In this document: in pieces, positions 10,147 through 64,000 of the stretch
How the letters are laid out: every line of letters starts with the position of its first letter
Numbering within the stretch: the stretch's first letter is position 1
Source: an uncultured virus (IMG/VR IMGVR_UViG_3300000304_000038)
Taxonomy: Duplodnaviria; Heunggongvirae; Uroviricota; Caudoviricetes
Direction: 5' to 3' (one strand)
Virus record (IMG/VR): IMGVR_UViG_3300000304_000038
DNA: 64,000 nucleotides
The notes under the pieces: generated by a model
Database searches by the model: none
What the model saw: the letters and a program-made list of their open reading frames with translations, nothing else
Told to the model about the DNA's origin: nothing
Translations under genes and position numbers: made by a program

Positions 10147-10848
10147 ATGTCAAATAAAGAGTATACTGTCTATATGCATATCAACAAAATCAATCAAAAA
10201 AAATATATTGGCATTACTAGCCAACCAGTCAATCGAAGATGGAGAAGTAGAGGACAAGGATATAAACAATGCACTCTTTTTTATAGAGCTATACAAAAAT
10301 ACGGCTGGGATGAATTTGAACATATTATTTTATATACTGATTTATCTGAAGATGAAGCAAAGAAAAAAGAGAGAGAATTGATAAGTAAATATCATAGTAA
10401 TGAGAAAGCTTATGGCTATAATCTTACAGATGGCGGAGAGATGTCTCATTATAACGAAGAAGCTAGACGCCGCATTAGTGAAGGAGTTCGAAGAAATCCT
10501 CCGCGTAGAGATCACGAGGTATTATCTCGTGGGCGTAAAATATTCTGGGAAAATGCATCCGAGGAATATAAAAAACAATGGAGAGAAAAAATAAAAAAAC
10601 AAGCACAAAACCCTATAATATTACAGGCGAGACGTGCTTATATGTCTTCTGATAAAAATCCTAGGCTCCAACCAGTAAAATGTATAGAGACAGGCGTCTG
10701 CTATCGATCTAATAAGGAGGCCGCAGAAGCGATGCACGGACATTCTTCAACTTTTTACAAAATTTGGTCTGGACATCAAAAAACCGCTTGGGGGTATCAT
10801 TGGGAAAAAATAACTTTGGAGGAATATTATGAGTATAAATCAAATTAG
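10147..10848 (+). CDS. Free-standing GIY-YIG homing endonuclease
   Basis: 'VYMH..KINQKKYIGIT...RW...E..LI..Y..N...GYN...GG' motif, basic C-terminal DNA-binding region, AT-richer than its neighbours. Confidence 0.85.
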   Translation: MSNKEYTVYMHINKINQKKYIGITSQPVNRRWRSRGQGYKQCTLFYRAIQKYGWDEFEHIILYTDLSEDEAKKKERELISKYHSNEKAYGYNLTDGGEMSHYNEEARRRISEGVRRNPPRRDHEVLSRGRKIFWENASEEYKKQWREKIKKQAQNPIILQARRAYMSSDKNPRLQPVKCIETGVCYRSNKEAAEAMHGHSSTFYKIWSGHQKTAWGYHWEKITLEEYYEYKSN

Positions 10849-35100: not shown

Positions 35101-35692
35101 ATATACAGTAAAGAATTGGATTTTGTCCTAGGCCATGTGCTAGAGTTGTTTGAACAGATATGACCCTTTGATTGGACGAGCCGCGCCATTTGAGAGTCAA
35201 GTCTTTTTTCTCTTGGATGAAAGGTCCATCTACGAGAACATCAATGTTCTCTAGAAGAATTTGCAAGTTGGCTTTATCTTCCAATGTCCATCCAGTCTGC
35301 TTGCCTCTAGTTTTGATTCCTATTTGAATTGCATTACCATAGGCTAAATCATAAATCTCCTCCCAAAGATATCCAGACCAAAGCCAAATTTTCTTTTGCG
35401 GCCAATGGCTTTTTATTTTGAGACAAAGTGTGGATAGCTCTGGCATATTTTCTTTTAGTAGAGGTTCCCCGCCTATCACTGCAACATGATCTATATAAGT
35501 CTTATCTAATAGATTTAGAATTTGTTCTTCTATTTCTTTCGTATATTGTTTACCAAAAAACATATTTTGTGCTTCTGGGTTGAAACAACCGGGACAATGC
35601 ATTCTACATCCACTCAAACAAATGGTTACGCCGACTCCTTGGCCGTTTTGTAGATCGGCATCATAAATAGCATTGATATACATATTATTCAC
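35099..35692 (-). CDS. nrdG: Anaerobic ribonucleotide reductase activase
   Basis: 'NGQG', 'GCRMHCPGCFN', 'GGEP', 'DVLVDGPF...WRGSSNQR'. Confidence 0.95.
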   Translation of the reverse strand: MNNMYINAIYDADLQNGQGVGVTICLSGCRMHCPGCFNPEAQNMFFGKQYTKEIEEQILNLLDKTYIDHVAVIGGEPLLKENMPELSTLCLKIKSHWPQKKIWLWSGYLWEEIYDLAYGNAIQIGIKTRGKQTGWTLEDKANLQILLENIDVLVDGPFIQEKKDLTLKWRGSSNQRVISVQTTLAHGLGQNPILYCI

Positions 35693-36416
35693 CCAGTTTA
35701 TTTATATGGTCATGTTTGACTCTATCTTCTGTCTCTGCTACTTTTCCCGAGTTGAAGGCCGTCTTGTAGTCTCCTGTCAAATCAACATTATTTTGTTGGA
35801 CTATTTCTTGCTCCGTAGAGCCAGTGTGTTTAGTCTCTGCATTTAGATATTCAATATCAAAATCTAGAATTTTTTTACTTTTTCTTTTTAGTCTGTAGCG
35901 GATACTTTCAAAAGTTCCATTATATCTTGCTGCTAAAAAACGAGAACATGCAGCATAGCTCTCAAATATATATTGTTCCTGCCCGTTCGTTATCCTTACA
36001 GGCTTCATCCTCTGTTGTCGAGCTAATTCTAGATTTTGACTACCTTGTTTAGAGATATTTGAATGGTCTCTATTCTTCATTTGTTCGCTTTTAGAAACGT
36101 ATCTAAGATTACGATAGTCGTTATTATGAGTATTTCTATCTATATGGTCAACCTCTAGTCCGTTAGGACATGGACCCAACCAACATTCTGCAACTACTCG
36201 ATGTATCATCACTCTTTTAGGTTTCTTCTTGTATCGACAAAAAGTAACATAGTATCCTACTTCTGAGTGGTGCATGTCTAATTTTATTTTATTTTGTTTT
36301 TTAGATTTTACATTTCTAAAAATAGTGCCATTCTCATTTACTTCGTATAAGAATCCTAAAGAAGGTATTTTTCTAAACTCAAGGTTTGCATTTTGCATCT
36401 CTTGATACCCCTCCAA
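35685..36416 (-). CDS. Intron-encoded HNH homing endonuclease, reading through into nrdD exon 3
   Basis: 'IHRVVAE.W...EVDHIDRN..NN...NL.Y'; its last 31 aa are the NrdD C-terminus. Confidence 0.85.
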   Translation of the reverse strand: MEGYQEMQNANLEFRKIPSLGFLYEVNENGTIFRNVKSKKQNKIKLDMHHSEVGYYVTFCRYKKKPKRVMIHRVVAECWLGPCPNGLEVDHIDRNTHNNDYRNLRYVSKSEQMKNRDHSNISKQGSQNLELARQQRMKPVRITNGQEQYIFESYAACSRFLAARYNGTFESIRYRLKRKSKKILDFDIEYLNAETKHTGSTEQEIVQQNNVDLTGDYKTAFNSGKVAETEDRVKHDHINKLGE

Positions 36417-39400
36417 TCATTATTTTATTTCCGACCCTTATTAGGGTACCAATTAGAGGAATCCTCTATTTAGTAGAGGTTTACACTAGTTTAGGGGCAT
36501 TTCCACAGGGATAACCCCGTCACCCGTCTTAGCTGTTGGATATGTTCACTACCGCATTCAGGGCATGATTCATTGAATTCGTCAGTGTATCCACAATCTA
36601 GACAAGTATCATTGGGTACGTTGATAGCAAAGTAAGGAATATCTTTGTCCATAGCATAATTGACAATAGTTTCAAGTCCATCGATATTATTCTTTACACT
36701 GCCCTCTAGCTCGACATAGGTAATGCAACCTGCTGAGCTATAATTTGTAAGTTGAGATTCAATATCTATCTTTTCAAAAGGAGTTAGCTTTTTCCAAACA
36801 GGAACATGGATACTATTTGTAAAATATTCCTTGTCAGAAACATTTGGAATAATGCCGTATTTTGCTTGGAATTTTTTCATTGCGGTTTTACATAAATTTT
36901 CTGCCTTTTTGTTTGGACTATATTTTCATCGCACTTCTCGTGCGAGGCTACCCTTTCGTTTTTTTACGACTCTACTTTACCTTATCGGATTTCGATAGTC
37001 TCTACGCATTTATTACTCGTTGTAAAAAATATGTGCCACTTTTAGTTTTTGTTTTTGGCTTCCAGCCATTGTTACACTGTTGCCCGATTGTCTTTTCGTT
37101 TATTCCTGTTTGTCTAGAAGCTTCTTGTGCGTTCCAATATCTTCCTATCTCTTCATCAGTATAATAATCATACTGTATTATAATTGGGGGCGGGCATATT
37201 GACTTATCATCTTGAAACCTAAAATAAAAAGGTTTTCTTACCGGTTTTTTATATTTACATTGCCGCATAATAGTATTTACACTTATTCCGGTTTCTCGAT
37301 TAGCTTCTCTGGCACTCCCGTATCTTCCTAGTTCTTTATTTGTATAAGTATCAAACATCACAACAGGATGTGACTGAGAATCTTCGTATCCTTTGGCGTT
37401 TACTGCCAGACCATCATCAAATGCTTTCTGGGTGTTTTCTTTTGGTGTGGTCCAATATAAGTTTTCTACGCGATTATCGGATTTTATATTGTTTTTATGC
37501 CCGACAATAGGAAAGTTGTTTGGGTTATCTAAAAAGGCTTCTGCTACAAGAATATGAACTCGTCTTTGTCTATTTTGATAAATTTCCGCAGATATTTGAT
37601 ATTTTATTGGCGCATACACATATCCATTATGTTTATTGGTTATCAAACTATATTTGAAATATTCTCCATAATGTGCGTGAGGAGTTTTTATATCTTTGCG
37701 CCATCTATTTGGGACTGTACGAGTTTCAATTCCGTAGACCTCTCCACGAGGAGTTATCCAGCAGAGAGAATTTGGGATTTGTTTTGCATCTTTTGGTAAT
37801 TCTTGAACATAATGTGCCATATTACTCCAATCTTTTTTATTTGATATATGGCACTTTTTTACGAGTAAAATTAGCTCGGTATTCCTTTCGGTTCACCGAA
37901 TTAGGTAGCTTTCACAAAGTATTTTGCAATACTAAGCCCCCACAGAAGTTATATGTTACTCTCAGGGGTAAAATAAACTCCGAAATTTAGTTGATATTGA
38001 ACTTTGAATTCTTTACAACGTTGTTGAAACAGACTTTCAATTCTTTTTGCTAGGACCATTCCTTCTTCTGTAGTTTGGTCTGTCCCAATAAGAAGTTGCA
38101 AAGTTTCTGCAAGTCCAAGCTGTCCAAGAGCAAGAGTACCGTGTTTTAGGGCACTTCTAATACCTTCTTCTGGCATATATCCATACATAGTGCCATTTTC
38201 GTACATAAATTTAGCCGCTTCTGGAGGCTGAGAACAAATATATTCAAATCTTTCAAGAAGCATATCTTTTGCTTCATGTATTTTTTTGTCCAATAGAGTC
38301 ATAAATTTTTCTACATCTCTATCGGCTTCCATAGCAAGCGTCGGCATGATGATAGTCACAGGGCAGATATTTCCGCGACCATCTTTTAGTTGACCAAACC
38401 CGTTTATATCAAAACCGTTATAAGTTCTACAACCCATCGTAGCTGTATAAGTTCTTGGGTCATTACGGTCATATCCTTTATTCACTGACCAATCCACATT
38501 CACATAGTTAGGATATAGCCGCAAGGCGGTGGACTTCAGAGCTAGTCTGAACATATCATAGTTTGGTTCTCCCGGCTTACGATTCACACCTTTCATACAT
38601 TGAAAAATACCACATGGGAAGATACTTGTTCTATGAAGCTTTCCTAATCCTTCGATAGAAACTTCAAGCAAAGCCTTGATTACCATTCTGCCTTCTGGAA
38701 GAGTACAAGTACCATAGTTGATGCTAGTAAAAGGCAGTTGGTTGCCACTTCGAGATTGAAGGGTATTTAGATTGTGATACATTCCCTCTACCGCTTGGTG
38801 AGTCTCTTGGATAGTTTTATCCATAGCATATTTATATGCTATAGGATAGCGTTTATACAATGGATGTTCAATAGAATGAGATGTGACAAAAGTCCGATAT
38901 TCTTCTTTTGTGCGGCCCATACATTTATTAGCTAAATGGAGTTCGATTTGTTCGTTGTCCATACATTCACAATACTTCAGCCCATCAATAAAATGTTTGC
39001 CAAAACTTTTTCGGACATATGGAACCATCGTCCAATCAAGATGCGTGGCGGCTACACCGCCAAATTGCATAAGACTCTGCAACTGAAAGATTACTGCCAC
39101 TAATTGAAACGCGGTGTTGATTGAGTTGGCTGGCCGCACATCTGTTTGGCGAGTATTGAATCCTTTAGCGAGCAAATCATCAAATGGGATAGATAGGCAA
39201 TTATGGTCTCCAAGAGCGTAATGAGAAAGGTCGTGGATATAAATTTCATTGTTGAGATGATTATCACGAGACTTTTTACTCATTAGGTGATTGAGAGCAT
39301 ATTCTCTGAGCACCTCGTCTGCAACCTCCCCCATGCGGCCTCCGAATGAATGTTCATCTACATTGGCGTTTTGATTTTGCACATTAGAAGCAAAAAGCTT

Positions 39401-42557: not shown

Positions 42558-45500
42558 TCAGTCCTCCCCGTAGCGTTTATCCGTCCCTCTGAGAATATAT
42601 CCCTTGTAAAGCTCTGTTATCTTGTATATCTGCGGATAGACGGACTTCTTTCTTGAGCGGCATCTGAACATGTCACCGTTTCGCCATCCAGTGAGCATGA
42701 GAAGCGTGCCGCGATTGAACCAACTATTTTCGACAACCTTGTTCTCGCCGTCTACGATATCACTTATGCGGCGATTGTACTTTGCAAAATATTCAAGATT
42801 GAACTTTACTGTGACCACGCCAGACTCCGGTGTTAGCAAGTCAACCGTAGCCTTGGTATTATTCTTCCCAATAACTGTTCCGGCTATACGGCTCAGCTCA
42901 TAAATAGGAATTTCCCTTCCGTTCTTACTAAAAGTATACTCCACCTTGGGTTCACTTGTCAACGAGGAATATGGAACGACACCATAGGCCGCAAAGTCAA
43001 CATTAGCAAGTTCGTGGTCGTGGTAGTAGTAACCAAGGCTGTCCATCTCCCAAGTCGAATAGGTTCCTTGTGCGTACTTTTTCCATTGCTCTTGGAAGAG
43101 AACGTCATTGAAGGCGTTGAGAAGTTCCTCTTGATGCTCTTGGATATATTTCTTTGCTGGTTCCATAGCCTTCGTATAGAGCTTCTGCCATGTCTTCTGC
43201 GGAATGACGGTTGTTCCCTCGTATGGCTCCAAGAGGTCTAAGTCAAAGAACTGCTCGTAGAAGTCATAATAGCTATAGTTTATCACGTAGTAGTCTTTTA
43301 GTTTCTTCTTTGCGCGCAGAGCTTTGTTGAATACGAATACTCTCCTTTGAAATTCTAGCTCTTGCGGCAAAAGTCCGAGGTCAACAAGTCCCTTGAAATT
43401 CTGTAGAGTAAGACGCTTCTTTGGTTCGCTCGCTCGCCGCAAATATTGTTCCATCAAATCCTTGCGCTCACCGAATTTGTCGAATGCGCCAGATTTGATT
43501 AGAGCAATAATCATGGTCTTGTTAGAAGAAGTCACTTTGGATTCAAAATCCTCGATGGAAGTGTATGGACGATTCTCGATTATCTCTTGGATAGCCTCAC
43601 CACCAACACCTGTCAGTGACTTCATACCATAATAGATTGAGTTGGTAGCTTCGTCTGGCTCGAACATATAACCTGAGCGGTTGATATCCACTGGAAGGAC
43701 TTTGATATTATGGTGTTGGATATCTCCCACAGCTTTGGAAACCTTAGTATAGACCGTTGAAGAGTCTTCATCAAGTCCGCTGGTGACTCGAAGATACGCT
43801 GTGTTCCAATAGACGGAAGGAAAATAGGTTGCTAAATATGCGGCCTGAACTGCGATGTAAGAATAGCTGGTTCCATGAATCGAGGAAAAAGAATAACCCA
43901 TACTCGGTTGTAGTAAGAACCAAACATACTTTCCCATCGCAGGGCTGGTAGCACGGTCAAAAATCTTTTGCCGTTGTAGGGGGATTTCGTCCATATGCTT
44001 CTTGGCGACAGTTTTTCTCAAAGCGTTGCTTTCTTTTAGACTAAAGCCGCAAATCCTATCATCCATAACGATACGCATTAGCATTATATACTTCAACTTT
44101 CATTGAAGAGTAGACTATACCATCTTTACATCATAGCAAAGTCCCCATTATAGTCGTTGAACGTCCCTCTGAGCTAGAGGTTTCGATGCGTCTGGTTGCC
44201 CAATCCTTAGCGATGTTACCTTACCTTGGTCGCTAACCTCGCCGCTAATATATCCCTATATTAGTTTGGTTGCTAAGGCTCTAAGGGTATTCCCGCAGTT
44301 TAGGGGATTTATAGAGTGCCTAATACTTGTTCAAAAACTAACTTTTTTCTCGTAAGATATCGGTATTCGGTCTGATTGTAAAAAGCATTATATAAGAATC
44401 TCATATTTTCTCTATGATTATATCCAGTTCCTATTTTGAGCTGATACAAAGGCCGATTGACATTTATATTGTGTTGCGTTGTATATGGTCTTTTATATTC
44501 GCCTTGCATATTTATAAAAATCGAACTGGGATATGGGAGTATTGAAGAGAATTTTTGTTTGATTTGTTCTTCAAACTTTATATCTCCAACTATAGATATT
44601 CCCGGAGAGTGCTTGTATGGATGTACCGTTCCATCCCCATCAAAATACCCGTGGAAGAAAGAAAGAAAAAGATTGTCATTTTGTATAATACGAGAGTCAA
44701 TATAATTTTCTATAGAACTCTTATTTTGAACAATCCCATATTCAGTAACAAAAGTATGAAAGTTTTGTTGTTGAATAGTTATCGCAGCGCTTCTGCCGTG
44801 ATGCCCAAGATAGATTCTTTCTTTTCTTAGTCCTAATGTGTTACAAAAGTTATATAAAATCTCTATATCATCTATTTTTACTTCAAGAATAAGACGTTTA
44901 GGGCCATCTATCTTCTTATAGTCTTGAGGGGCAACACATCCATCTGCCATAATATATCCGAGCCAATATGCTCCCAATGTGGATAGCGGTTCATCAAATA
45001 GATTGAACGTTCTTATAATCTTTTCTGTAACATCAGGAAAAACATAATAGTCTTCTATTTTTCTATTTCTTTTTTGAAACCATTTTTCTGCGACACCCAG
45101 CTTTTTAGAGATACTATAAATACTAATAGGAGTATTATGATTCTCTATAAATAGTTCTAATGCTAAATCAGCGATTTCTTTATTATCTATCTCACGTTTG
45201 CCAATAAACATAATAATCATCTCCTTCACTTGTAAGATGATTATTATATACCCACTAGAAATATATTTTATACACAGGTTGACACTCTTGGTCAATTAGA
45301 ACTCCGTTACGAACGTATTTCTTGATTACGTTTTGCTCTTCTTTTGTCAAACCATAAGCATCCATCTCTTTATCCCATTGTTCAGGATGATTCATTATTC
45401 TAACATATCTATCAGTAGGAGTTTCGCCGCTATCATCTGCCATAAGCCGCATAATACCATTGCAGTCGTTCAAAGTTTCTATGTCTCTTGGAAGAAGCTT

Positions 45501-47797
45501 CTTGACTGTTTGTGAGCCTACGTCTGACACAAGTTGGAATAGGGCAAGAATATCTGTACTGTCAACAGCATCCCAGAGTTTATCATCGTTCATTGGCAAA
45601 ACATCTGGTGATACATACTTGTCATATGCTTGCCGCAAAGTTAGTTCTGGCTCAATCTTACCGTGCTCTTGGAGAAGTTTGATACACTGAGCCATAATAT
45701 CCATTTGCTGAGTTACAAGAATATCTACTTTGGTAGTTCCAGCATACTCTTGGTCGTGGAGTGACCATTGGGTAATAATCGAACCGTCTTTTGCTTTCAT
45801 AAAACAAGCTTCAGAATAAGGGTCATCATTATCGTAGAACCCCACTCCAGATGCGTGGATAGAACGATTTTGGATAAGTCCTTCTATTCCAAGCAAAATC
45901 TCTTTCAATCCCGGATACAGATTCACAACTTTGATAAACTCCTGAGACGGCTTTCTTCCTTTTTCTTGATTGCCATAGAAGCAATCTGACAAGCTATATA
46001 AGAAACCTCTCTCTTGGGGGACAAGACTTGAAAGATATTCTGCTTCATCTAACTCAATTCCATCTGGACAATCATTACTTCTATATCCTCGTGCGGCTAT
46101 TTTGATAGCTGCCTTGGTGGAGATAGTTCCATAAGTACAAATCTGTACGCATCCTAACTGACCTCGCTCTTCTCTAATCTTCTCAAAAACCTTTGGCCGC
46201 AAAGTGGGAGAGATATCAATATCAATCCTAGTTACCCTCGGTTTCCCGATATTTATTAGGGGAGTGGACTATACCATCATCCGTTCTGGATGGGCGTTGG
46301 TAGTCTCTACGGGCTTCTCTTGCGAGCTGTCCCACGGGATTGTCTTGCTCTTATGAGTTTAGATTTTCCCCGTTATTCCGCCTTTGCTTAGACTATTCCT
46401 AGTCTAAGGGACAAGTATGTTTATCCGGTAACTCGATACGCTCCTTATTGAGAAAACGCCAATAGGCAAAATGATGTTTGATTGGGTCAAGGCCAGTTAC
46501 ACCTAATAGCCAATGATTGAGACCAGCAGCCGCAGAGCCTCGTGCTACTCCAATAGGTGAACCAACGTCCCATATCATATCAATATAGTGTTGAAGAAAA
46601 TTAGGATAAGCAAAAATACAAGTATCAAGATGCTGACCAACATAATCCATAATATCAGCTTCGTATTCAAGCCGTTCGAGATAAGTATCACAGCCTAGAT
46701 GCTGAGGACTCAGATGCCGCAAATTTAGTTCGTTCTGACATTCGTTTATCCAATAGCGTTCTTGGGGGTTCTGTGAATGCATTAGTTTGTCAAGAGTAGG
46801 ATATTTTTCTTTATCATAGAAGTGATGATTTTCTGGCTCTATTGGATAGTTTGGGACTGGAGCTTCAACAATATGTTGATTTTTATGAAGAGTATAATAT
46901 TCACATCTATCATATATCTTCATAGAGTTAGCGCAAAGCTCTTCGTAATCAAGCCCAATACCTTCTAGGTTCTCTCTGATTTCTTCTTCGGATTGAAGAT
47001 ATGCATAAGCATAGAAAGAATCTACTTCTCTATCTCCTTCTTTGGAGTTTAGAAGAGCTTTGTGAACATATCTATCTTCTTTGCGGAGATAGTGACTGTC
47101 GCAAGTAACGCAGATAGGGAGGTCGAAAGCCTTAGCGATTGCCCCCATTCTTTTGTTTACAATCAACTGCTCTTCTGACCTCGCAGGTTGGACCTCAAGA
47201 GAGAAGTTATTATCTCCATAGGTATTCTTGCACCAAAGGAGAAAATCAACAATGTCCCTGTGAGCTTGGTTCATTTCTGCGGCGTTTCCGATAATCTCTG
47301 CCTCATGCAAATCAAGAATACGTTTGTCCAAGAATGATCCCAGGCAGGCACTTGATCCGTATATGTGTCCCTGTCCATATTTTTTGATAACAGCTTCTAT
47401 TTCAGAATAAAGAGTAGGGACTCTTTCTCCTCTGTCAAAATAGCTTTGTATCCAAGATTGAGAGGAAAGCTCTCTTAGCATCTTATGTCCCGTGGCATCC
47501 AGAGCCAAGAGTATGTGATGGTAGTATTGCTGTCCAGAGCTTCTATCTTTTGTGAGATATATCTCGTTTCCGCGAACAATCTTGAAGTCAGGATATTTTT
47601 CTTTATATTCTTCCTGAAGGCGGTCTAGCTCTACATGAGCACCAAGACTTTCGTGATCGGTAAGTCCTACGCCCGCAAGTCCTAATTCAATTGCTCTATC
47701 TATAAGTTGTCTTGGTCTGTTAGTTGCATCGAGAAGTCTGATGTTAGACCTAAGAATAGTGCGAGTGATTGTGAAAATCAAGCCTCGGCACTATCAT
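42558..47797 (-). CDS. dnaE: DNA polymerase III alpha: exons 47797-46423 (with 7 extra nt at 47749-47755), 46226-45282, 44081-42558
   Basis: PHP 'HNHSHYS', 'TDH', 'RGSAA', spliced 'ELPD|IDID', 'SIHASG', 'DQEC|LM', 'YSFS..H..SY', HhH and OB regions. Confidence 0.92.
44082..45281 (-). mobile_element. Group I intron dnaE-I2
   Basis: UGU| ... AUAAUG| boundaries (inferred); TTCAACGACTA...GTATAGTCTA core. Confidence 0.82.
44309..45213 (-). CDS. Intron-encoded LAGLIDADG homing endonuclease
   Basis: 'AYWLGYIMADG' and 'FFHGYFDGDG' motifs; start uncertain. Confidence 0.88.
46227..46422 (-). ncRNA. ORF-less 196-nt group I intron dnaE-I1
   Basis: GAU| ... CUAGG|; AATCCCGTG, GTAGAGACTA, GTATAGTCC; removal restores PDIDID. 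Confidence 0.88.
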
Positions 47798-48254
47798 TGG
47801 CATCACCTCCAGAAGTATCAAAAAGTCCTACGTGCCAATTTGTAAATATCTTATTTGACACGTCAATGAGAGCATTCTCAAGAGTCTTTAGTCTATTCTC
47901 TAAGTCTTTGATTCTTTCATCGTACAACTTGAATCTAGTTAGATCAATATCTCTCAGAGTTGGAGGCCAATATCCACCAATAGGAAAATTGTCTGGATTG
48001 GCTTTACGGAAACAAAGTCCCTCCAATTGTCCTTTTCTTTTTACCATATCAAACGTCTGAAGAAAAGCGTTTTCTCCAAAAGAGTTTACTATATAGACAG
48101 GCTCTTCGAGACTGTTATAACAAAAGTAATCACGTATAAACTTAGCTCTGCCTACTCCGCTCTCATTTTCTAGAAACTTACAGTTGTCTTTTACCACGTC
48201 TAATTTCGCTGGCGGATTGTATTCATAGGTCATATTATCAGCCGTCCAAGACAT
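47778..48254 (-). CDS. Hypothetical protein
   Basis: ATG at 48254 overlaps the upstream stop (TAATG); C-terminal coiled coil. Confidence 0.6.
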   Translation of the reverse strand: MSWTADNMTYEYNPPAKLDVVKDNCKFLENESGVGRAKFIRDYFCYNSLEEPVYIVNSFGENAFLQTFDMVKRKGQLEGLCFRKANPDNFPIGGYWPPTLRDIDLTRFKLYDERIKDLENRLKTLENALIDVSNKIFTNWHVGLFDTSGGDANDSAEA

Positions 48255-48517
48255 TATTGAATTACCTTCCCAGCTCTGATTTCCTTCTTCATATATGCGC
48301 CCTTCTGTCGGCCACACATTTCATCAGGAAGAACCTCTCCGGTTAGCTTCTCATAGTTGATATTCCAGCGATAACGTGAGAGCTTCCTCGAATTATCTTG
48401 CTCGTCAATCACGGTATAGCCGCAATCATAGCATTTTGAACCCCAACACTCGGGATTCTTGTGTTTGAAGCCGTTCACATTATGCCCACCGCACTTGGGA
48501 CATTTCGCCATTCTCAT
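48254..48517 (-). CDS. Lar-like Zn-ribbon protein
   Basis: 'CPKCGG...C.DCG...WN'. Confidence 0.6.
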   Translation of the reverse strand: MRMAKCPKCGGHNVNGFKHKNPECWGSKCYDCGYTVIDEQDNSRKLSRYRWNINYEKLTGEVLPDEMCGRQKGAYMKKEIRAGKVIQ

Positions 48518-52768: not shown

Positions 52769-55430
52769 CTATACCACCTTCTTAGTGGTGGCGTTGATGT
52801 TCAATCCGGGAATGTCGTATGGCTGCAACTTCCAATCTGTCGTACCTATTGGATAGAAACGACAAGTGCCTTTGTCCGCGTATATCCATACGTAACAATT
52901 CACATATTTGCCACGACGGTTCTTATATATGGAAAGCTTTTGATTTGGCATATGCCCCCAGACGCTAGGCCAATTAGCCGCATTCAAATCCTCTTCATCT
53001 TCTTTTGTGACATTGAGAAGAATGCTGCCAAGGTCGATTTTATCTGCGATACTCTTCGACCCCCTTAGCAAGTTCTGGTCTGGAATTGAATCTGTTTTCC
53101 AACTCGCGTTCTCTATTGTTTCCAATAGTGCTGACTATATCTTATTCTATAAAGAAAATTCTGTTTCGCTTTTCATTTGCTTCGTTACCTAAAACAAAAC
53201 TACGTATCAATAGTAGTGCTACTTCCCGGCCCATGTAGACTGAGGGAATAGTCGATACACGTTCATTATAGCTGAATCCATAAGCCTATTTTCCTATCAA
53301 AGAAAGGAATTGCATCATAACAAGTTCCTTTTCTGTAAATAATAGCATCAATGGTTTTTGGTCTTATTTCTGGAAAAGAATTGTAAATTTCTTCTAAAGG
53401 ACAATAGGTAGCATATTTTTGTCTAATTTTATAAGCTGTTTCAAGAGAACATGCTCGTTTAGCCTGATTCGGTAGAGAGTTTACAACACATTTAGATATC
53501 CCTGCGTTTTTTCTAAGAGGATAATTTAATTCCTCTTTATGCCAATTTTTCCCTTTGTTAATATTGCAAACAGTAGCAGGTGATACATTGTATTTTTTGG
53601 CTATTTCTCTTAGAGTTAATTTGTTTTCTAAAATTAGTTGAATAATATTATCAACTTCTACTTGGGTAAGTTTAGCTTGAGAATGCTGTTCCCCTGATAG
53701 GTTAAATCCTTTTTGGCCTCCGTCTGCTAGATTATATCCAATATTTGGGTCTTTAGCGTGATAGTATTTAATCCAATGCCGTTCTCGTTCGTCTAATTGG
53801 TCTTGTTCGCAGAATTCAATCACTTCAACCGTAACATTTTCTAACCCATACTTATGCATGGCTCTATGGATGGGAAGATTACTATCTTTTCTTCCTCCGC
53901 GAGCCGACCTAATATGTCCTTGGAAACGAACATATAAATCTACCGCTTGTCCTATGTATATTTTAGAGTTTTGTAAAATTGTAATTTTATAAATCCCAGA
54001 ACTATGATTCAAATCATTTATCATTTATACACCTCTTCTCTGTAAAAAAAGTGCATATGATAATCCAGCTATAATTATTCGCACGGGATTAGCATGGTTT
54101 CTTTACTTTAGCTTCCCCCGTTGGCAACTTAATTTAATAAGCTACTTCGTTGATAAAACGATTAAAAATTACCGCCAATTTCAAAATAGATTTTAGCGTT
54201 CAGTTGTGTCGCTGATTCAATAAAGATATTATATTGAACAGCTAATTCTTTTAGTCTGGTAGAAAGAAGATATAAAACACTATCTTCTCGCATGTTAGAT
54301 ATCTTCGCTTTGCCGCCCACTTCTTCAAGAATGCCAAGAGATGTACTAAGATAATCGTAAAAGATATAATTACATTTATCCTGAATATGAGCTTTTTTTA
54401 TAGTATTCTCAACATCCGATACTGTAAAGTTAGGAAGCTGTTTGAAAAATAACGGGGCACCTCTTAGTTCTTCTTTTGCTTGTTTTAGAATCTCGAACTC
54501 TTGCGGAGTCAATTGGCGAGAAATAATTTTTTCCTCGTTTATATTTGAGATAAAAGAAAGAGCTAAGGTAAACAGCTCACTATCGTCTAGCTCCGTGGAG
54601 ATAAAAAGGACTCCTTCTCTTTGACCGTCTACATCATCGCAGATAGGAATCCATTCTCCATCGATGATAATTTTTCTACAAGCAAGCATACAAGCATCAG
54701 CCATCATATACCTTGTCTTTCCGACACCCGATGCTGCTGAACGAATAAAGAACTTTCCTTTTCTCGCCCCAAACGTAACCCTATTCAGAATGCCAGAATA
54801 TACTTCGTCAAAGCCGCCGAAACAGAATGGCATTCCCACTTCCGGGGAACTCTGTAATCCCTCCCAGAGAGCGTCAATCTTGTCCCCAAGCCGCATGGCA
54901 TCTTCTTCACCCTTGTTTACTGTCTCAACACGGACTAGAGATACCTTATTCTCGATTCTTTCGGCCACATCTGATAAGCTAAGTTGGTCTAACTGATTGA
55001 GTTGTTTTTCTTTCTTTTTAGGTTCTATGAGGTTGTTTGGGTCATAGAGCCAAGTAACATCGACGCCCGCATCACAGTAGTTGCGTAGCAAGGTCATTTT
55101 CTTCACTTTGTCGTAGTAGTATTTGAAAGACTCTGGCTCCGCATATTCGATTGCGTTTCTCAGATATTCTGGACCATTTGCGGCCTTGTAGGTGACTGAG
55201 GCATTCTCACGTCCCTTGATATAGTTCTCAACGTCCATGAGAGTGATTACCTCAGCACCATTCGCATATAGATTGGAGGCGGCTCCGTATATAATCCTAT
55301 GTGCCTCGTTCACAAAATCTTGTGAAGTGAGAAAATATTGTCCGTTCTGGTCTAGGAGAGATGGCTTCTTGAATATACATCCAAGCACTTGTCGCACGGC
55401 ATCGGTATCATAAAAACTCTTGCTATCCAC
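52769..55430 (-). CDS. dnaB: DnaB-like replicative helicase, two exons (55430-54195, 53104-52769)
   Basis: Walker A 'SAASGVGKT', 'YDYL', spliced 'TQLNA|SW', 'LRGSKSIADKID', 'KNRRG'. Confidence 0.9.
53105..54194 (-). mobile_element. Group I intron in dnaB
   Basis: GCU| ... GCG|; AATCCCGTG, GTATCGACTA, ATATAGTCAG core. Confidence 0.87.
53266..54024 (-). CDS. Intron-encoded GIY-YIG homing endonuclease
   Basis: 'SGIYKI...KIYIGQA...R...H...ERE..WI.....GYN'; HTH tail. Confidence 0.9.
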   Translation of the reverse strand: MINDLNHSSGIYKITILQNSKIYIGQAVDLYVRFQGHIRSARGGRKDSNLPIHRAMHKYGLENVTVEVIEFCEQDQLDERERHWIKYYHAKDPNIGYNLADGGQKGFNLSGEQHSQAKLTQVEVDNIIQLILENKLTLREIAKKYNVSPATVCNINKGKNWHKEELNYPLRKNAGISKCVVNSLPNQAKRACSLETAYKIRQKYATYCPLEEIYNSFPEIRPKTIDAIIYRKGTCYDAIPFFDRKIGLWIQL

Positions 55431-58296: not shown

Positions 58297-61200
58297 TCAA
58301 GCTATATTTTTTCCTACACTCCCAAGCTTGCCACAGACCTTGTTTCCTTTATTAGTCAAAACGGCTTGCTCGATTCTGTCATTCGCCGCAAGCTTCATCG
58401 CCTTGCGACCGGGACTTGCCTTGGCAAGAAGGGAAACATCATCAACGTTCAACAGCAGTTGCTTCTTTGTGGTTGTCAATGCAAGGCACTCGTAGTCCTC
58501 GCAACATTGGATACCGACAACCTCAGCCGCATCGTGAAGTTTGACAATCGGCATACCCTTTAGATTCTGGGTGGCGCCATTCAGATCACTTGACTTCACT
58601 CTCTTGGAATAGCCATCACTTGTCGTAATTATGATGCTATCTTCGCATCGAGGGGTGGTGAACGTCACGATTCTTTCTTGCGGCTGGAAGTCTAGAATGG
58701 TACCAAGAGCTGTTCCCTTGTCAGAGTTCAAGCATTCCTTGAACGTAGATGTCTTTACCCTGAATGCCCGTCCAAGAGACGAATAGAATACGACAAGTTC
58801 GTTGTTCTCTACCTTCTCCTCGCGGACGTTATTAGGACTCGTGCGGAACTTGGCAACCGGGACGGACTTTACGTAGCCGTTCTTGTCGAGACATATGATT
58901 ACGCTGTGCGGCAGTTCCTTCTGCTTTTCTTTTGGAGACTTCTTCTGAATCTCCTTGTTGATTACTTGCGTGCGGCGCGGAGTTCCAAATTCCTCTGCGA
59001 GATTGACAAGCCTCTCAATGAGAATGTCTTTTTGTGCCTCTTTAGACTCAACAATAGTCTGTAGTTTCTTTGCAAGCTCTCTTTTGGCCGCAAGTTCATC
59101 TAGAATCTCTTGTTTTTCTAGATGGGCAAGTCTACTTAGTTTCAAGGCAAGGATAGCATCCGCTTGTCTTTCTGTCAAACCTAGTTTGTTAGTCATATAT
59201 GCTTTTGCGTCAGCCGCGCTCTTGGAGCTTCTGATTAGCTTGATAACGTTATCAATCCCATTATAGGCACGCTCTAATCCTTCAAGAATCTCTATCCTAT
59301 CGAGAGTCTTATCTAGGTCAAATTGATATTCTCTCTTGATACAGGATAGATTATGATCTTTGTATATGCGGCATACGTCCTCTAGGTTCAGAAGTGTTGG
59401 TGTCTTAGAGACAACAGCCATCTGATTTACATTTATCTGTGTTCTGAGCGAGGTATATTGAAATAGCTCTTCTAGTAGAGTTTGCACTTTGGCCGCAGAC
59501 GTAGCTTCCACCACAAGAAGGGTTCTCTTCTTGTCTGTTCTATTGGAACAGTCAGCGAAACCATCAAGCTTTCCCTCTTCATAGGCTTTTTTGATTTCTT
59601 CTACAACAGGTTCAATATAGACTTGGTGTGGAAACTCTGTGAAGTATATCTCCTTACCGACAAGCTCATATCTAGCTTCTAGAATGATGCGGCCTTTGCC
59701 GGTTTGGTTTATCTTCCCAAGCTCGTCTTTGTTGATGATAGTACATCCTGTTGGGAAATCTGGGTAGTAACTATCATTTTCTACTTCTGATGTTTTCAGA
59801 TAATTGACCAGAAGATTTGCGGTTTCTTGAAAATTATGGAGCGTCCATACATTTGCGACAGATACTCCGATGCCCTGCGAACCATTTACCAATAGACGTG
59901 GGAAGATAGCAGGGAGAACCGTTGGCATTTCTTCGTCTTCTGAGAAGTTGAGCATCATGTCAACCGCATTCTTATTGATACCATCCAAGAGACCTTGCTC
60001 TGTTATCTTAGAAAGCCGCACCTCCGTATATCTATCTGCGGCGAAAGCATCAGAGCCGAGAACAACGTTTCCGTTTGCACCGTGGAAATCAATCTCAGGA
60101 TTGTTATTGGTAAATGGCTGAGACATATGGACAAAAGTCTCGTAGATTGCCTGTGTCAATTTTTGTTATCCTAAAGGCTTTTTATCCTTTAGTTCTTATA
60201 GTTTCCTATAAGGTCGGCATATCTTTTCTATTATATATAAATAGTTGCTGTCTCTTGGAAGGATTATATTCTCTTGCGAGTTTCACCTTCTATGCTCTGC
60301 CCCTGACTAAAATGTTACCTTTAGCCTTCGGTTCGGGTTAGCATAGCTTTTATAAGCTTTAGCCTTCCCGCTTAGTACAGCAATTTTAGCACGGCACACA
60401 GTTTTTTCTTTTTAGATATAGTTGGTACTTTCTGTCTAAATAGATATCTGCGTGTTGATACAAGATATCTAGTGCTCTATTAGCTAGTTTTTTTGAAGTA
60501 ATATTGAAGCGATATATGGTTCCGTGTTTGAGGATATTATTTGGAATTTTTTCTATCAAAGTTTTTTCAAAAAAATTTTTGACATAGAGACAGGTTTCAA
60601 AAGAACCTACTATACCAATTCTATCGTCATAAGTGCTAATATATCCATCTCCGTCAAAAATTCCTCTAACATAGGCAGCAGCAAGATTGTTATCGCCTAA
60701 AATAGTAGGTATTTCTTTACCACTTTTTGCACCAGATAAGCCATATTGCGATAGATTTTGAACAATATTTTTATTGCTTATTTTGATTACGTGGCACAGA
60801 TTATCTTGAGTATACGCCCCACCGCTACAATCTTTGATAATATGATTAGAGTTATACCCTAAATATTTAGCAAATTTTTCTAAATGTCTTTTATCTTTAT
60901 GAGCCAGTTTGATTTGTAATAAAGGTTTTTTGTCACTATCGGATACATATCCATCTGCTAAAATAAAACCCAGCCAATAAGCATCTTGTTCATTTTGGAT
61001 TCTATCAAACGCATTTGTATTATAACTATATCTCATTTTTCATACCCATCTCTAATCTTTTTGGGTATAAGAACAAACTGTTTTTATTCTACCGTGCGGC
61101 CACCAGTTAGCTGCAACTCCGCCGTCTACCTTTGCAGACTTTACGTGCGGCTTCTTTGAGGAGTATCCTTTGGTATACATCTCCCAAAGAATGCACCTTT

Positions 61201-61318: not shown

Positions 61319-63424
61319 TTCGTGCCTCCTCTGAATGTTCTAGAATGAACTTTACTCTTGGTTCAACCGCCTTACCATAAAGGTCTTGGAATAGTTGATT
61401 AGTTGTAGGAACGTCATCGACAGTAAGCTGGACAATATGTCTTGTATTGGAATCCAATAGACATTCTGAGAGTTCGCTGCTGTCCATCTCTCCCAAGCCT
61501 TTCAGGCGATTTATTGATTGAATATTTTTATATTTTGCTTTATACGATTGCAAAGCATTATCATCTTTCAAATAGACATATTTATTCTTTGTGGTTGTGA
61601 CTTTATACAGAGGGGGTACGGCGGAATAGACATGACCATTGATAATTAGCTCAGGACAAAGATTCCAAAGAACATTGAATAGCAAATTCTCTATCGCAAA
61701 GCCGTCAAAATCCAGTAATGCTTATATTGCTATAAGACTTAGACTATATCTTTCCTACTAGAATAGTAAGGGTATTGTTTCGGATTACGTATCAATAGCA
61801 ATCCTACTCCCCCGTTTCGGGGATAGTCGTTACAGGTTTTTATTTCCCACGGGATTGCCTTATAAAAGGTTCCCCCGTTAGCAATAAATATTACCTCAGC
61901 GATAACTGAAAAAATACAACACAGCCAATTTTATTTAGCATCACAGCAAGCGATAATTTTTCCATATCTTAGTTTATCTTTGTCGTATACCATCTTACCC
62001 GTTTGCGGATTATAATCAAGACCAAGAGCCACAACTAAATTGTTGATTTCTTGATTCTTCATAATTGCATTTGCGGCTGCTTTGAGTACGTTTAGAATTT
62101 TTCCTCGTACACCATATACTGCTTGAAACTCGGAAGAACGACCAGCTACAAGCCCTGATTTTGCTGAGTCTCCTTCGCAGACGAGCAGCTCACATTTGTC
62201 TCTATTCTTTGACCAACAATCAGTAAGCTTTGTCGGCATCTTGAATACTTTGTCTTTTTTCTCTGCCTTTTGCCGCACAGCTTCTCTTGCCTTCTTTGCG
62301 GCCTCAGCAGCTCGTCTAGCAAGAAGAGCCTTCTCAATGATAACCTTACCATCTTGCGGGTTATTGTCTAACCAAATCTCTAACGCATTGCTAAATACCT
62401 CGTTTATAAACGGATTATCTGCGGTACTAGTTACTCTTACCTTTGTTTGAGAGTCATATCTGATATCTTTAGATACTAAATTGAATACAATTATCATACC
62501 CTCTTGAAGAACAGAACCAGACAGAGTTTCTTTAGGCTTTAGTAAACCTTGTTCTTGCCCCCATTTATTGAGTGTTTTGGTAATAGTTCCTTTGACGCTT
62601 GTAATCGGAGTACCAGCTTCAATCGGAGCATAATTGCAAAAAGCAATAATGTTTCCACCATTATCAGAAACAGTCAATCCTAAGTTCAATCTACGATAAT
62701 CTTTAGTTTCATCTAAAATAAAACGGCTTGTGAGGATTTCTACTTTACTCTTCGTTTCATATTCAAGATAATCATTTAGCCCTTCTGGGTGGGCAATTTC
62801 TTTTCCGTTGAAAATATAAGTAAGATTAGGGCAAACACAAGTAATCTTATGTGCATTTTCCAAAAGAAGAGATTCATTTGGAATTGCGCTATCAAAAAAT
62901 TCCTCGCTTGGTTGGAATTCTACAATAACGCCATGTTCGTTCTTATCACACCTACCGGTTTCTCTGCGTGCGAATTTTCCTTCATCGAAAAAGACCTTCT
63001 CAAAGATTCCATCTCGTTTTGTGGTAGCAATAAGATAGTGCGAAAGATAACAAGTTAGAGCGGCACCAATACCAAAAGCTCCAGTAGAAACTTTATATAC
63101 AGCATCTTCATCTTTATTGAATTTCCCAGAAGAATTTACCTCTCCATAGACTAACTCTAGAGTAGTTTTATCTCCTTGTTTATTGTTTGGAAGAATACCC
63201 TGTCCCCAGTCTTGTACTGTAACAATATTTTTTTCGCTGTCTATAGTAACGGATATTTTATCGCAATTGCCAGCAAGATGTTCATCTACTGCATTAGAAA
63301 CGATTTCTGTTACTAGTTGGGTTGAATCTACGGTAGAGCCACAGTATACATCTGGCCTATGGCGACAAAACGTTAAAGGGTCCATTCTTTGAATAGAATC
63401 TTTATGATAAGTATTATGATTCAT
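61311..63424 (-). CDS. gyrB: Type IIA topoisomerase subunit B, two exons (63424-61937, 61712-61311)
   Basis: GHKL 'EIVSNAVDE', 'D.G.GI', 'EGDSA', 'RGKILN', spliced 'DA|DFDG', 'KGLGEM'. Confidence 0.93.
61713..61936 (-). ncRNA. ORF-less 224-nt group I intron in gyrB
   Basis: GCU| ... ACUG|; AATCCCGTG, GTAACGACTA, ATATAGTCT. Confidence 0.88.
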
Positions 63425-64000
63425 AAATGACCCCTCTTTCTATTAAATACTCTATATCAAGATTATCATAGTCTGTATAGGGGATTGTTATTAACTTTAG
63501 ATTATGACTACAATAAAATTGTTTTTTCCAGTTATCCCTGTTTTTAAGTTTCTTGAACCCTTCTTCTCCGCCAAAATATTCAATTGGACGATAATGCTGT
63601 TCGCCATTATATTCAATAACTATACTTTGATTCGGCAAATAGAAATCTGCAAAGCAGCATCTCGTCGTATCGGGATGCTTAAAAGTTTTATTAAAATTTT
63701 CTTGTTGAGAAAAATATATCCCCATATTTTGTAAAATACTTTTAACTTTATTTTCTCCCTTAGAGACAGTGCATTTTCCACAACTTTGTTGCCCGTTTTT
63801 TCTAAGAAGAAAGGCAATAGGAACTTGAATAATATTTCCGCAATCACATTCAGCTGAACATAACAAGCCTTGATTAGTAGCTCTATCATCCTTAAGAATT
63901 TCTATCACTACTAATTTACCAAATCTTTCACCAACATAAGATAATGCGCGTCTATATGTTGCACATTGAGGACAATATTTCACATGCCCGCTTTTTAGAC
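63414..64000 (-). CDS. Free-standing Zn-finger / DUF559-like endonuclease (5' end probably outside the window)
   Basis: 'FGKLVV...CDCG...SCG', 'SKGE', 'DFYLP....IEYNGEQHY', 'D..K..F......I.Y'. Confidence 0.75.
   Translation of the reverse strand, partial: LKSGHVKYCPQCATYRRALSYVGERFGKLVVIEILKDDRATNQGLLCSAECDCGNIIQVPIAFLLRKNGQQSCGKCTVSKGENKVKSILQNMGIYFSQQENFNKTFKHPDTTRCCFADFYLPNQSIVIEYNGEQHYRPIEYFGGEEGFKKLKNRDNWKKQFYCSHNLKLITIPYTDYDNLDIEYLIERGVIYES

What the first reader, a model, noticed from the sequence alone, without database searches (positions are those of the whole stretch)
47735..47810. dnaE interrupted by 7 nt (TCT-TAG-G-TCT): candidate ribosomal hop site
Seen (minus strand): RBS GGAGGTGA and ATG 47797 give MIVPRLDFHNHSHYS (TCT 47755-53), then TAG, G, and TCT 47748-46, after which the long frame continues NIRLLDATNRP. 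Removing 7 nt gives the typical PHP start HNHSHYSNIRLLD. Matching take-off and landing codons around a stop is the signature of translational bypassing (T4 gene 60: GGA-UAG...GGA). A small stem, AGGUCU/AGACUU, starts in the stop codon. Alternatives: (a) a relic or collapsed group I intron, since U|TCTTAGG| fits the U/G boundaries and dnaE-I1 also ends in TAGG; (b) re-initiation at TTG 47781, which overlaps the upstream TGA and would give a polymerase lacking the first PHP histidines, possibly proofreading-deficient; (c) assembly error.
Basis: partly seen in the sequence, partly recalled or inferred. Interest (0 to 1): 0.8.

Follow-up and report, generated by a model that had tools for sequence, protein, structure and literature searches.

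The report
Ribosome-hop gap in phage polymerase gene
A gut phage's DNA polymerase gene is broken after 15 codons by seven real bases starting with a stop codon; related phages carry 5- to 14-base versions, some beside a selfish nuclease gene, so ribosomes most likely hop over the gap, a rare way of reading a gene that has not yet been tested at the bench.

Summary
Confirmed and real. The phage dnaE reads 15 codons (HxHxxYS), then TAG-G-TCT, then the 1,264-codon body. The same site is broken in 16 of 80 relatives found by protein search. Pattern scans give 23 gap types (5-14 nt, all three frames). The codon before the stop is TCT/TCC in 23 of 23 types (4 of 54 intact alleles). The codon before the resume Asn is TCN in 18 of 23, always the first TCN downstream, never AGY. 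The 15-codon part is under purifying selection and all seven downstream PHP ligands are kept. In several relatives the break is the 3' end of a mobile cassette: stranded original dnaE start, Vsr/I-Bth0305I-fold endonuclease, new RBS, replacement N-terminus, gap. This is the layout of T4 MobA/gene 60. The window has no nuclease beside dnaE. Longer gaps pair with upstream codons; the window's gap barely does. Best reading: seryl-tRNA stop-hop (about 0.76), inferred, with no RNA or protein data. Assembly error and intron relic are rejected; re-initiation cannot be general. The scan noted similar dnaE hops on other DNA before (e1-5644472 and others). I found no paper on it.

The parts
47802..47810 (-). 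Extended Shine-Dalgarno (GGAGGTGAT) of the replacement dnaE start
   Evidence: Sequence. GGTG(A/G)T lies upstream in 40 of 51 distinct broken alleles and 1 of 54 intact alleles.
47753..47797 (-). 15-codon N-terminal part of DnaE with the first two PHP histidines (HxHxxYS)
   Evidence: Translation. HxH aligns with the N-terminal HxH of T. aquaticus DnaE via intact relative L001. pN/pS about 0.11 across 11 clades.
47753..47755 (-). Inferred take-off codon TCT (Ser)
   Evidence: TCT/TCC in 23 of 23 gap types vs 4 of 54 intact alleles; 40 of 40 DnaE loci from scans that left this codon free.
47749..47752 (-). Stop TAG plus 1-nt spacer G
   Evidence: TAG is a normal stop in this genome: 18 of 45 listed ORFs end in TAG.
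47746..47748 (-). Inferred landing codon TCT; decoding would resume at AAC 47745-43
   Evidence: First TCN after take-off in 18 of 18 TCN-type gaps.
46423..47745 (-). dnaE exon 1 body (PHP domain, start of polymerase domain)
   Evidence: Pfam PHP and DNA_pol3_alpha; PHP ligand columns kept.
46227..46422 (-). Inferred group I-type intron 1 (196 nt), U before, G at end
   Evidence: Removing both introns gives one open frame of 1,264 codons. No Rfam match, so the class is inferred.
45282..46226 (-). dnaE exon 2
44082..45281 (-). Inferred group I-type intron 2 (1,200 nt) with a LAGLIDADG-like ORF
   Evidence: Frame test; PF14528 E 2.3e-5; phrog_4645.
42558..44081 (-). dnaE exon 3 (finger, HhH, C-terminus)
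47778..48317 (-). Upstream ORF of unknown function whose stop overlaps the dnaE start region; not an endonuclease by Pfam/PHROG
   Evidence: No hits. A contig lacking the 7 nt (X3 record 14) aligns across 47300-48100, so the 3' part of this ORF is shared with the intact allele.

Best explanation
The 7 nt are a minimal translational-bypass (stop-hop) insert left by a homing-endonuclease cassette. SHOWN (comparative): in relatives, a Vsr/I-Bth0305I-fold endonuclease element sits inside the dnaE 5' end. It strands the original start after Y-S-N-I-R and supplies a new RBS and a replacement 12-17-codon N-terminus, which ends in Ser(TCY), a stop and a short gap, joined to the resident body at Asn. 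The window has the replacement end but no nuclease beside it. INFERRED: (1) the nuclease cuts intact alleles in the conserved HxHxxYSN-coding region and the gap makes carriers immune; (2) the ribosome pauses with peptidyl-tRNA-Ser on UCU and UAG in the A site, the anticodon detaches, the mRNA slides 7 nt, the tRNA re-pairs on the next UCU, and decoding resumes at AAC, giving a normal Tyr-Ser-Asn junction and a full polymerase of about 1,278 aa; (3) in gaps of 8 nt or more, a hairpin between the gap and the codons just read helps set the distance; (4) the strong RBS offsets a hop efficiency below 100%.
For: Same-site break in 16 of 80 relatives from a protein search. 23 gap types, 5-14 nt, frames 0/+1/+2 = 4/11/8. 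Take-off TCY 23 of 23 vs 4 of 54. Landing TCN 18 of 23; the other five (ACC x2, TTT x2, GCT) pair at least 2 of 3 positions with a GGA anticodon. Landing is AGY in 0 of 23 vs 20 of 54 intact Ser codons, which points to codon matching rather than selection for serine. Mini-ORF: 26 synonymous vs 13 non-synonymous changes. Seven downstream PHP ligands kept in 46 of 46 broken alleles. L035 is 98-99% identical to intact L021/L024 3' of the site and diverges 5' of it. Stranded original starts in L067 and L362, decayed in L142. Endonuclease tail within 230 nt in 7 of 53 broken vs 1 of 57 intact alleles. All 6 of 80 endonuclease loci at 61% identity or more abut a broken dnaE. Best fold matches: I-Bth0305I (Z 10.0) and Vsr (Z 9.9). 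Gap-to-upstream pairing beats swapped combinations for gaps of 8 nt or more (p 0.001).
Against: There is no direct evidence of a hop: no RNA, ribosome or peptide data. The window lacks an adjacent nuclease, as do most broken alleles (46 of 53). The 6 close endonuclease loci are contigs I already held, and the query came from a broken locus. Distant homologues abut intact dnaE (L065, L619/620, L635/636, L673, L677). The window's own gap pairs at only -1.1 kcal/mol, and short gaps show no covariation (p 0.84); with one allele per lineage the pairing test weakens to p 0.03. In L035/L331, TGA is read as Trp elsewhere in the gene, so their A-site codon may be sense; L576 may be similar for TAG. Four types have ATG/GTG directly before the landing codon, which fits re-initiation. 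The gene 60 signals (strong take-off stem with UUCG, mini-SD, long nascent peptide) are absent. Unprogrammed stop-hops are low-efficiency (passages in 10.1101/2022.08.31.505936), which is a problem for a replicative enzyme. The 23 types are not independent events.
Confidence: 0.76

Rival explanations
1. Split enzyme: the 15-residue peptide terminates normally, the body re-initiates (TTG 47781 here; ATG/GTG next to the landing codon in others), and the peptide complements the PHP barrel in trans or is dispensable.
For: TTG 47781 opens the body frame. 13 of 23 types have some ATG/GTG/TTG in the body frame upstream of Asn, and 4 have it immediately before the landing codon. Purifying selection on the mini-ORF also fits a functional free peptide.
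Against: 10 of 23 types have no such start. In these the first in-frame start lies at body codon 2 to 89, and at codon 14 or later in 8 of the 10. The upstream TTG/ATG are by-products of conserved Phe-Asp/Glu codons and have no SD of their own. This reading does not explain TCY-only take-off or TCN landing. The ATG in TGATG is also explained by pairing with upstream CATTA.
Confidence: 0.1
2. Local recoding without codon re-pairing: a +1 shift here (reading AGG-TCT-AAC, two extra residues), readthrough for in-frame gaps and -1 shifts for others.
For: Shifty stops are known in bacteria (established knowledge). For gaps of 5-7 nt the distinction from a hop is small.
Against: It needs three different mechanisms for three frames. 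Three long types have a second stop in the body frame directly before the landing codon. None of 54 intact alleles has extra residues at this junction. No slippery re-pairing codon exists at UCU-UAG.
Confidence: 0.07
3. The gap is a micro-intron or intron relic removed from the RNA, for example in trans by one of the gene's group I ribozymes.
For: The window's gap has U before it and G before the landing TCT, and intron 1 ends in TAGG. 13 of 23 types have G just before the landing codon.
Against: 5 of 23 gaps contain no G at all. Take-off TCC puts C, not U, at the 5' boundary in 8 types. No long intron at this site in the 80 loci. Several broken alleles have an intron-free dnaE (single 1,257-1,316-codon body frames in L006-L015, L593, L596). 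The G before landing is partly explained by hairpin pairing.
Confidence: 0.05
4. Assembly error or dead pseudogene.
For: Close relatives in runs X2 and X3 lack the 7 nt. No raw reads of the source sample were seen.
Against: The same gap occurs in independent contigs. There are 23 versions at one site, with purifying selection on both sides. The gap-free relatives also differ at a cluster of nearby bases, as expected for a different allele.
Confidence: 0.02

Closest known systems
Phage T4 gene 60 bypass within the MobA homing-endonuclease element (Manning and Atkins, bioRxiv 10.1101/2022.08.31.505936; Bonocora 2011 as cited there)
   Same: Endonuclease gene, element-borne replacement of the target region (homR), stop or hungry codon after take-off, matched or wobble landing codon, 3' junction at the bypass, later loss of the nuclease with the gap kept. 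One of their clades also uses a VSR nuclease.
   Different: Target is dnaE (PHP motif), not topoisomerase. Gap is 5-14 nt, not 20-50. tRNA-Ser rather than Gly/Asp. Take-off comes after only 12-17 codons. No UUCG take-off stem or mini-SD. The stranded 5' piece is an 18-19-codon stub rather than a functional subunit. No homology to MobA was seen.
Streptomyces phage Hau3 terminase bypass (PMC10732093)
   Same: Short gaps (7-10 nt) in a conserved phage protein; the junction tolerates no added residues; bypass of such a gap was shown by MS in E. coli for a UAA variant.
   Different: Triggered by the rare sense codon UUA and proposed to be regulatory; 3 of 100 ter genes; no endonuclease link reported in the sections I read.
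Synthetic stop-hops (Weiss 1987, as described in PMC5009743)
   Same: Matched codons flank a stop. L209 and L362 (TCT-TAG-TCT) are exactly the 9-nt, one-residue case.
   Different: Those were constructs. The 2016 review says of natural in-frame stop hopping that no occurrences are known.
Magnusiomyces mitochondrial byps (passages in PMC5009743 and 10.1101/2022.08.31.505936)
   Same: Mobile inserts neutralised by bypassing; imperfect take-off and landing matches occur.
   Different: Mitochondrial, 27-55 nt, unused sense codon, many genes.
I-Bth0305I / EDxHD (Vsr-like) homing endonucleases
   Same: The C-terminal domain of the relatives' ORF has this fold (Z 10.0, rmsd 2.8, 92 aligned).
   Different: Free-standing, with three Cys-rich N-terminal repeats, not intron-encoded. 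Activity untested. Absent next to dnaE in the window.

Membership tests
Programmed translational bypassing (general) | Matched or wobble take-off and landing codons flanking a non-coding gap | tested here: met
   TCT/TCT in the window; TCN landing in 18 of 23 types, near-cognate in 5.
Programmed translational bypassing (general) | [quoted passage not shown] | tested here: met
   TAG is a true stop in the window. In L035/L331 the TGA may be a Trp codon. The pattern scans required TRR here; the 16 protein-search loci did not.
Programmed translational bypassing (general) | Both sides needed as one protein, with no residues added | tested here: inconclusive
   Both sides are under selection and intact alleles have no insert, but one chain is not shown.
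Programmed translational bypassing (general) | Gap retained in mRNA and junction peptide observed | not testable with these tools
   No RNA run was listed; no proteomics.
T4 gene 60 / MobA element | Insertion in the topoisomerase large subunit, with CTE/NTE and a MobA HNH nuclease | tested here: not met
   Target is dnaE; the nuclease domain is Vsr-like. It works like the MobA element but is not a member.
T4 gene 60 / MobA element | Endonuclease plus element-borne copy of the target region, with the bypass at the 3' junction | tested here: met
   In relatives L067, L362, L142, L035, L596. The window retains only the replacement 5' end.
T4 gene 60 / MobA element | Stable take-off stem-loop (UUCG-type) | tested here: not met
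   Window -1.1 kcal/mol. 7-8-bp hairpins occur only in the 10-, 13- and 14-nt gaps of relatives, with other loops.
T4 gene 60 / MobA element | Mini-SD 5-7 nt before the landing codon | tested here: not met
   Only 4 nt separate take-off and landing in the window.
T4 gene 60 / MobA element | Nascent-peptide stimulator | not testable with these tools
   Only 15 residues are made at take-off; in gene 60 the key signal lies 30 residues back (PMC5009743 passage).
T4 gene 60 / MobA element | Gap blocks cleavage by the linked nuclease | not testable with these tools
   Inferred from position only.
Group I intron (relic or micro-intron) | U before the 5' splice site and terminal G | tested here: not met
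   Fits the window, but 5 of 23 types have no G and 8 have C at the 5' boundary.
Group I intron (relic or micro-intron) | Catalytic core, or full-length introns at the same site in relatives | tested here: not met
   7 nt only. None in the 80 loci; the pattern scans covered gaps only up to about 25 nt.
EDxHD/Vsr homing endonuclease (ORF in relatives) | Vsr-like catalytic fold | tested here: met
   Model pLDDT 87; top matches 3r3p Z 10.0 and 1cw0 Z 9.9. Foldseek gave no hit at E<=0.001. PHROG homing/HNH endonuclease families hit.
EDxHD/Vsr homing endonuclease (ORF in relatives) | Site-specific cleavage of the element-free allele | not testable with these tools
   Needs an in vitro assay.

The most novel reading that the evidence does not exclude
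A widespread family of minimal, evolvable natural stop-hops: 5-14-nt gaps read by seryl-tRNA re-pairing, spread by a Vsr-type homing cassette, in which longer gaps evolve a hairpin ending exactly at the landing codon. The hop is kept after the nuclease is lost because it gates polymerase output (sensitive to release-factor or serine/tRNA status), so it is a regulatory switch and not only a tolerated scar.
Probability: 0.25. Interest if true: 0.9.

Novelty: new variant of a known kind. Interest (0 to 1): 0.77.

Why it matters
Programmed bypassing is known from very few natural systems, and the 2016 review states that natural in-frame stop-hops were unknown (PMC5009743 passage). This site offers a natural allelic series of 23 gap versions at one position in an essential enzyme: 5 to 14 nt, three frames, exact, wobble and near-cognate landing, with and without a hairpin. 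That makes the minimal requirements of bypassing directly testable in short reporters. It also shows the MobA/gene 60 solution (nuclease, replacement N-terminus, bypass insert) arising on a second gene with a different nuclease fold. Gene callers will truncate or mis-start these polymerases and lose two PHP metal ligands; 16 of 80 of the nearest relatives are affected.

Tried and rejected
No whole genome is held for this window, so I could not check for a second polymerase or tRNA genes outside the window; the window has no tRNA. No RNA holder listed. Raw-read run X23 gave one partial read, which is no test. Rfam: no match at gathering level in the window, or at E<=1 in 43900-48100. GenBank phages: no DNA match to the site; protein relatives are all below 60% identity and I did not inspect their 5' ends. 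A scan of the window for other matched stop-hops gave about 45 motifs; by eye, none other marks a broken gene. Stop-codon reassignment in the window is rejected. Foldseek and PDB sequence search of the relatives' nuclease were uninformative; the wide structural search resolved it. The careful tree did not finish; the quick tree was used. Earlier-findings searches by sequence returned nothing relevant. Literature searches listed no paper on a dnaE bypass.
Full report
Observation. The minus strand carries GGAGGTGAT (47810-47802), ATG 47797 and 15 codons ending HNHSHYS, then TAG, G, TCT (47748-46) and a frame that continues NIRLLD. The body is a PHP/Pol III alpha polymerase. With two inferred introns removed (46422-46227 and 45281-44082) it is one open frame of 1,264 codons from the landing Ser. 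The window is a phage segment with tail, lysis and replication genes. It uses the standard code: 20 TAA, 18 TAG and 7 TGA stops among the 45 ORFs I listed. A matched codon pair around a stop is not rare by itself; about 45 such motifs occur in the window.

It is real and recurrent. A protein search of viral contigs confirmed 158 relatives and kept the best 80; 16 of 80 are broken at exactly this site. Pattern scans of viral, metagenome and genome contigs raised the set to 169 DnaE locus records including the window, 96 of them broken; many are the same contig fetched twice. They reduce to 51 distinct broken and 54 distinct intact site sequences and 23 take-off/gap types. Left out of these counts: L059, L061 and L063 (a nearby 1-nt frameshift) and five records of an HNHTHRSN allele. 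Gaps run from 5 to 14 nt and cover all three frames (4, 11 and 8 types). Contigs from bird-gut runs hold both states: X1 record 4 bridges the site with no gap, while X2 record 8 and X3 record 14 (about 90-93% alike over the stretch) lack the 7 nt and differ at a cluster of neighbouring bases. Two genome hits lie in MAG contigs labelled uncultured Bacilli; the window's host is not known.

Codon pattern. The codon before the stop is TCT or TCC in 23 of 23 types, against 4 of 54 intact alleles. Searches forced TC there, but searches left it free and gave 40 of 40 TCY (14 types), and the 16 protein-search loci are also all TCY. The codon before the resume Asn is TCN in 18 of 23 types and is the first TCN after take-off in all 18. 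It is never AGY, although 20 of 54 intact alleles use AGY. The other five (ACC twice, TTT twice, GCT) pair at least two of three positions with a GGA anticodon. Types share ancestry, so the p-values overstate independence.

Both sides matter. In the last 11 codons before the stop, 11 clades show 26 synonymous and 13 non-synonymous changes (pN/pS about 0.11). The HxH aligns with the N-terminal HxH of T. aquaticus DnaE. That these are two of nine PHP metal ligands is established knowledge (nine positions: PMC3919608, passages). The other seven ligand columns are intact in 46 of 46 broken and 54 of 54 intact alleles long enough to test.

A mobile cassette. On a quick tree of 104 bodies (18 short or stop-containing records left out) the broken state needs 11 changes, 8 of them forced by starred branches. 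L035 is 98-99% identical to intact L024/L021 downstream of the site and diverges upstream; its 5' segment is closest to broken alleles from distant clades. L035, L067, L142, L362 and L596, with five different gaps, carry a closely related endonuclease ORF ending at the dnaE RBS; L005 and L011 carry a second subfamily. In L067 and L362 the original dnaE start survives about 1.07 kb upstream, ending Y-S-N-I-R just before the element. L142 has a decayed stub, and L596 and L035 look decayed by eye. The nuclease C-terminal domain matches I-Bth0305I (Z 10.0) and Vsr (Z 9.9) best. Its tail lies within 230 nt in 7 of 53 broken and 1 of 57 intact alleles (Fisher p 0.028). In a reverse search, all 6 of 80 loci at 61% identity or more abut a broken dnaE, but these are contigs already held; more distant homologues precede other genes or intact dnaE. 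L331 and L345 seem to keep only a nuclease tail (weak scores); L356, L373 and L576 have an HNH-like gene instead. An extended SD marks 40 of 51 broken and 1 of 54 intact alleles, as expected if the element brings its own RBS. The window has the replacement end but no nuclease beside it; a homologue lies at 63414 to beyond 64000, in front of topoisomerase II.

RNA structure. Longer gaps are instead complementary to the codons just upstream: 8 bp in the 10-nt types (L122/L401, and L560 with different paired bases) and in the 14-nt types, 7 bp in the 13-nt type, 5 bp in L035/L331, each ending at or one base into the landing codon. Cognate pairs fold better than swapped pairs for gaps of 8 nt or more (p 0.001, 13 types), not for shorter gaps (p 0.84, 10 types); with one allele per lineage p is 0.03. 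The window's own pairing is only -1.1 kcal/mol. The complementarity could also record how the insert arose (template switching); the sense strand folds better than the antisense in 6 of 10 cases, equally in 2 and worse in 2. Pairing of mRNA leaving the ribosome is proposed as the driver of gene 60 bypassing (PMC5009743 passages; title and abstract of 10.1101/2024.12.09.627546).

Mechanism. Most likely (0.76), peptidyl-tRNA-Ser detaches from UCU at the UAG pause, re-pairs 7 nt on, and decoding resumes at AAC. The anatomy and the cassette are shown; the hop, the nuclease target and the protective role are inferred. Against it: there are no RNA or protein data and no gene 60-type stimulators in this allele. 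TGA is read as Trp in L035/L331, so their A-site codon may be sense; Manning and Atkins report hungry-codon variants. Four types have ATG/GTG directly before landing. Re-initiation (0.10) fails for 10 of 23 types that lack an upstream in-frame start. Mixed frameshift/readthrough (0.07) needs three mechanisms. RNA excision (0.05) fails on 5 G-less gaps. Error or pseudogene (0.02) fails on recurrence and selection.

Comparison and novelty. It works like the T4 MobA/gene 60 element but is not a member: different gene, nuclease fold, tRNA and gap size. Papers seen: 10.1101/2022.08.31.505936 (abstract, parts 1 and 3 of 7, passages; supplements not seen, and they may bear on whether other target genes are listed); PMC10732093 (abstract, first part of the introduction, sections 3.4 and 3.6); PMC5009743 (passages); PMC3919608 (passages); 10.1101/2024.12.09.627546 (abstract, closing section); PMC3239194 (search listing only). 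Bonocora 2011 and Weiss 1987 are known to me only as cited there. Searches listed no report of a dnaE bypass; the library lacks most subscription papers. The scan's own notes describe similar dnaE hops on other genomes; e1-5644472 (10 nt after 13 codons) is probably this same family. I reached the cassette model before seeing them (notes). They are unchecked AI notes and I do not count them as support. Verdict: a real, most likely functional new variant of programmed bypassing; interest 0.77.

Noticed in passing
window 63414-64000 (minus): Homologue of the Vsr-type endonuclease, ending at the RBS of a topoisomerase II large-subunit gene (61931-63424). No break seen at that gene's start. Other family members also precede gyrase-like genes (L611, L614, L615, L626, L648, L666).
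   Followed up: partly
window 46227-46422 and 44082-45281 (minus): Two inferred group I-type introns in dnaE, the second with a LAGLIDADG-like ORF; neither is detected by Rfam.
   Followed up: partly
window 60386-61036 (minus): Endonuclease (phrog_4645) upstream of a topoisomerase II ORF (58297-60159) whose PHROG match starts at profile position 82; probably another intron or split gene.
   Followed up: no
window 10147-10848, 35685-36416, 37002-37820, 53266-54024: Further homing-endonuclease-like ORFs (two GIY-YIG, two HNH); the genome is rich in selfish nucleases.
   Followed up: no
L123 (also L212, L247, L289, L291) at the dnaE 5' end: Intact-frame allele reading HNHTHRSN (CAT AGG TCT). It could be a revertant of the 7-nt type by a different 7-nt deletion that removed the Tyr codon.
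   Followed up: no
L067, L142, L345, L555, L565, L569, L576, L590 dnaE starts: In the three checked (L067, L142, L345), no ATG/GTG/TTG lies at the expected distance from the SD; an in-frame ATA sits there in these and in the other five. Possible AUA initiation.
   Followed up: no
L018, L029, L035, L046, L066, L331; L045, L067, L080, L142, L590: In-frame TGA at Trp columns (code 4-like) in the first group; in-frame TAG, often at Gln columns, in the second. L067, L142 and L590 use TAA at the hop site.
   Followed up: partly
L004 vs L002: Intact L004 shares the RBS and first codons with broken L002 up to HNHT and diverges right after: a crossover inside the motif, apparently restoring an intact allele.
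   Followed up: partly
L356, L373, L561, L392, L576 upstream of dnaE: An HNH-like gene replaces the Vsr-type nuclease next to broken alleles, like the nuclease swaps reported for the MobA element.
   Followed up: partly
L059, L061, L063: One extra T a few codons into the body in three records from separate contigs; sequencing error or another recoding site.
   Followed up: no
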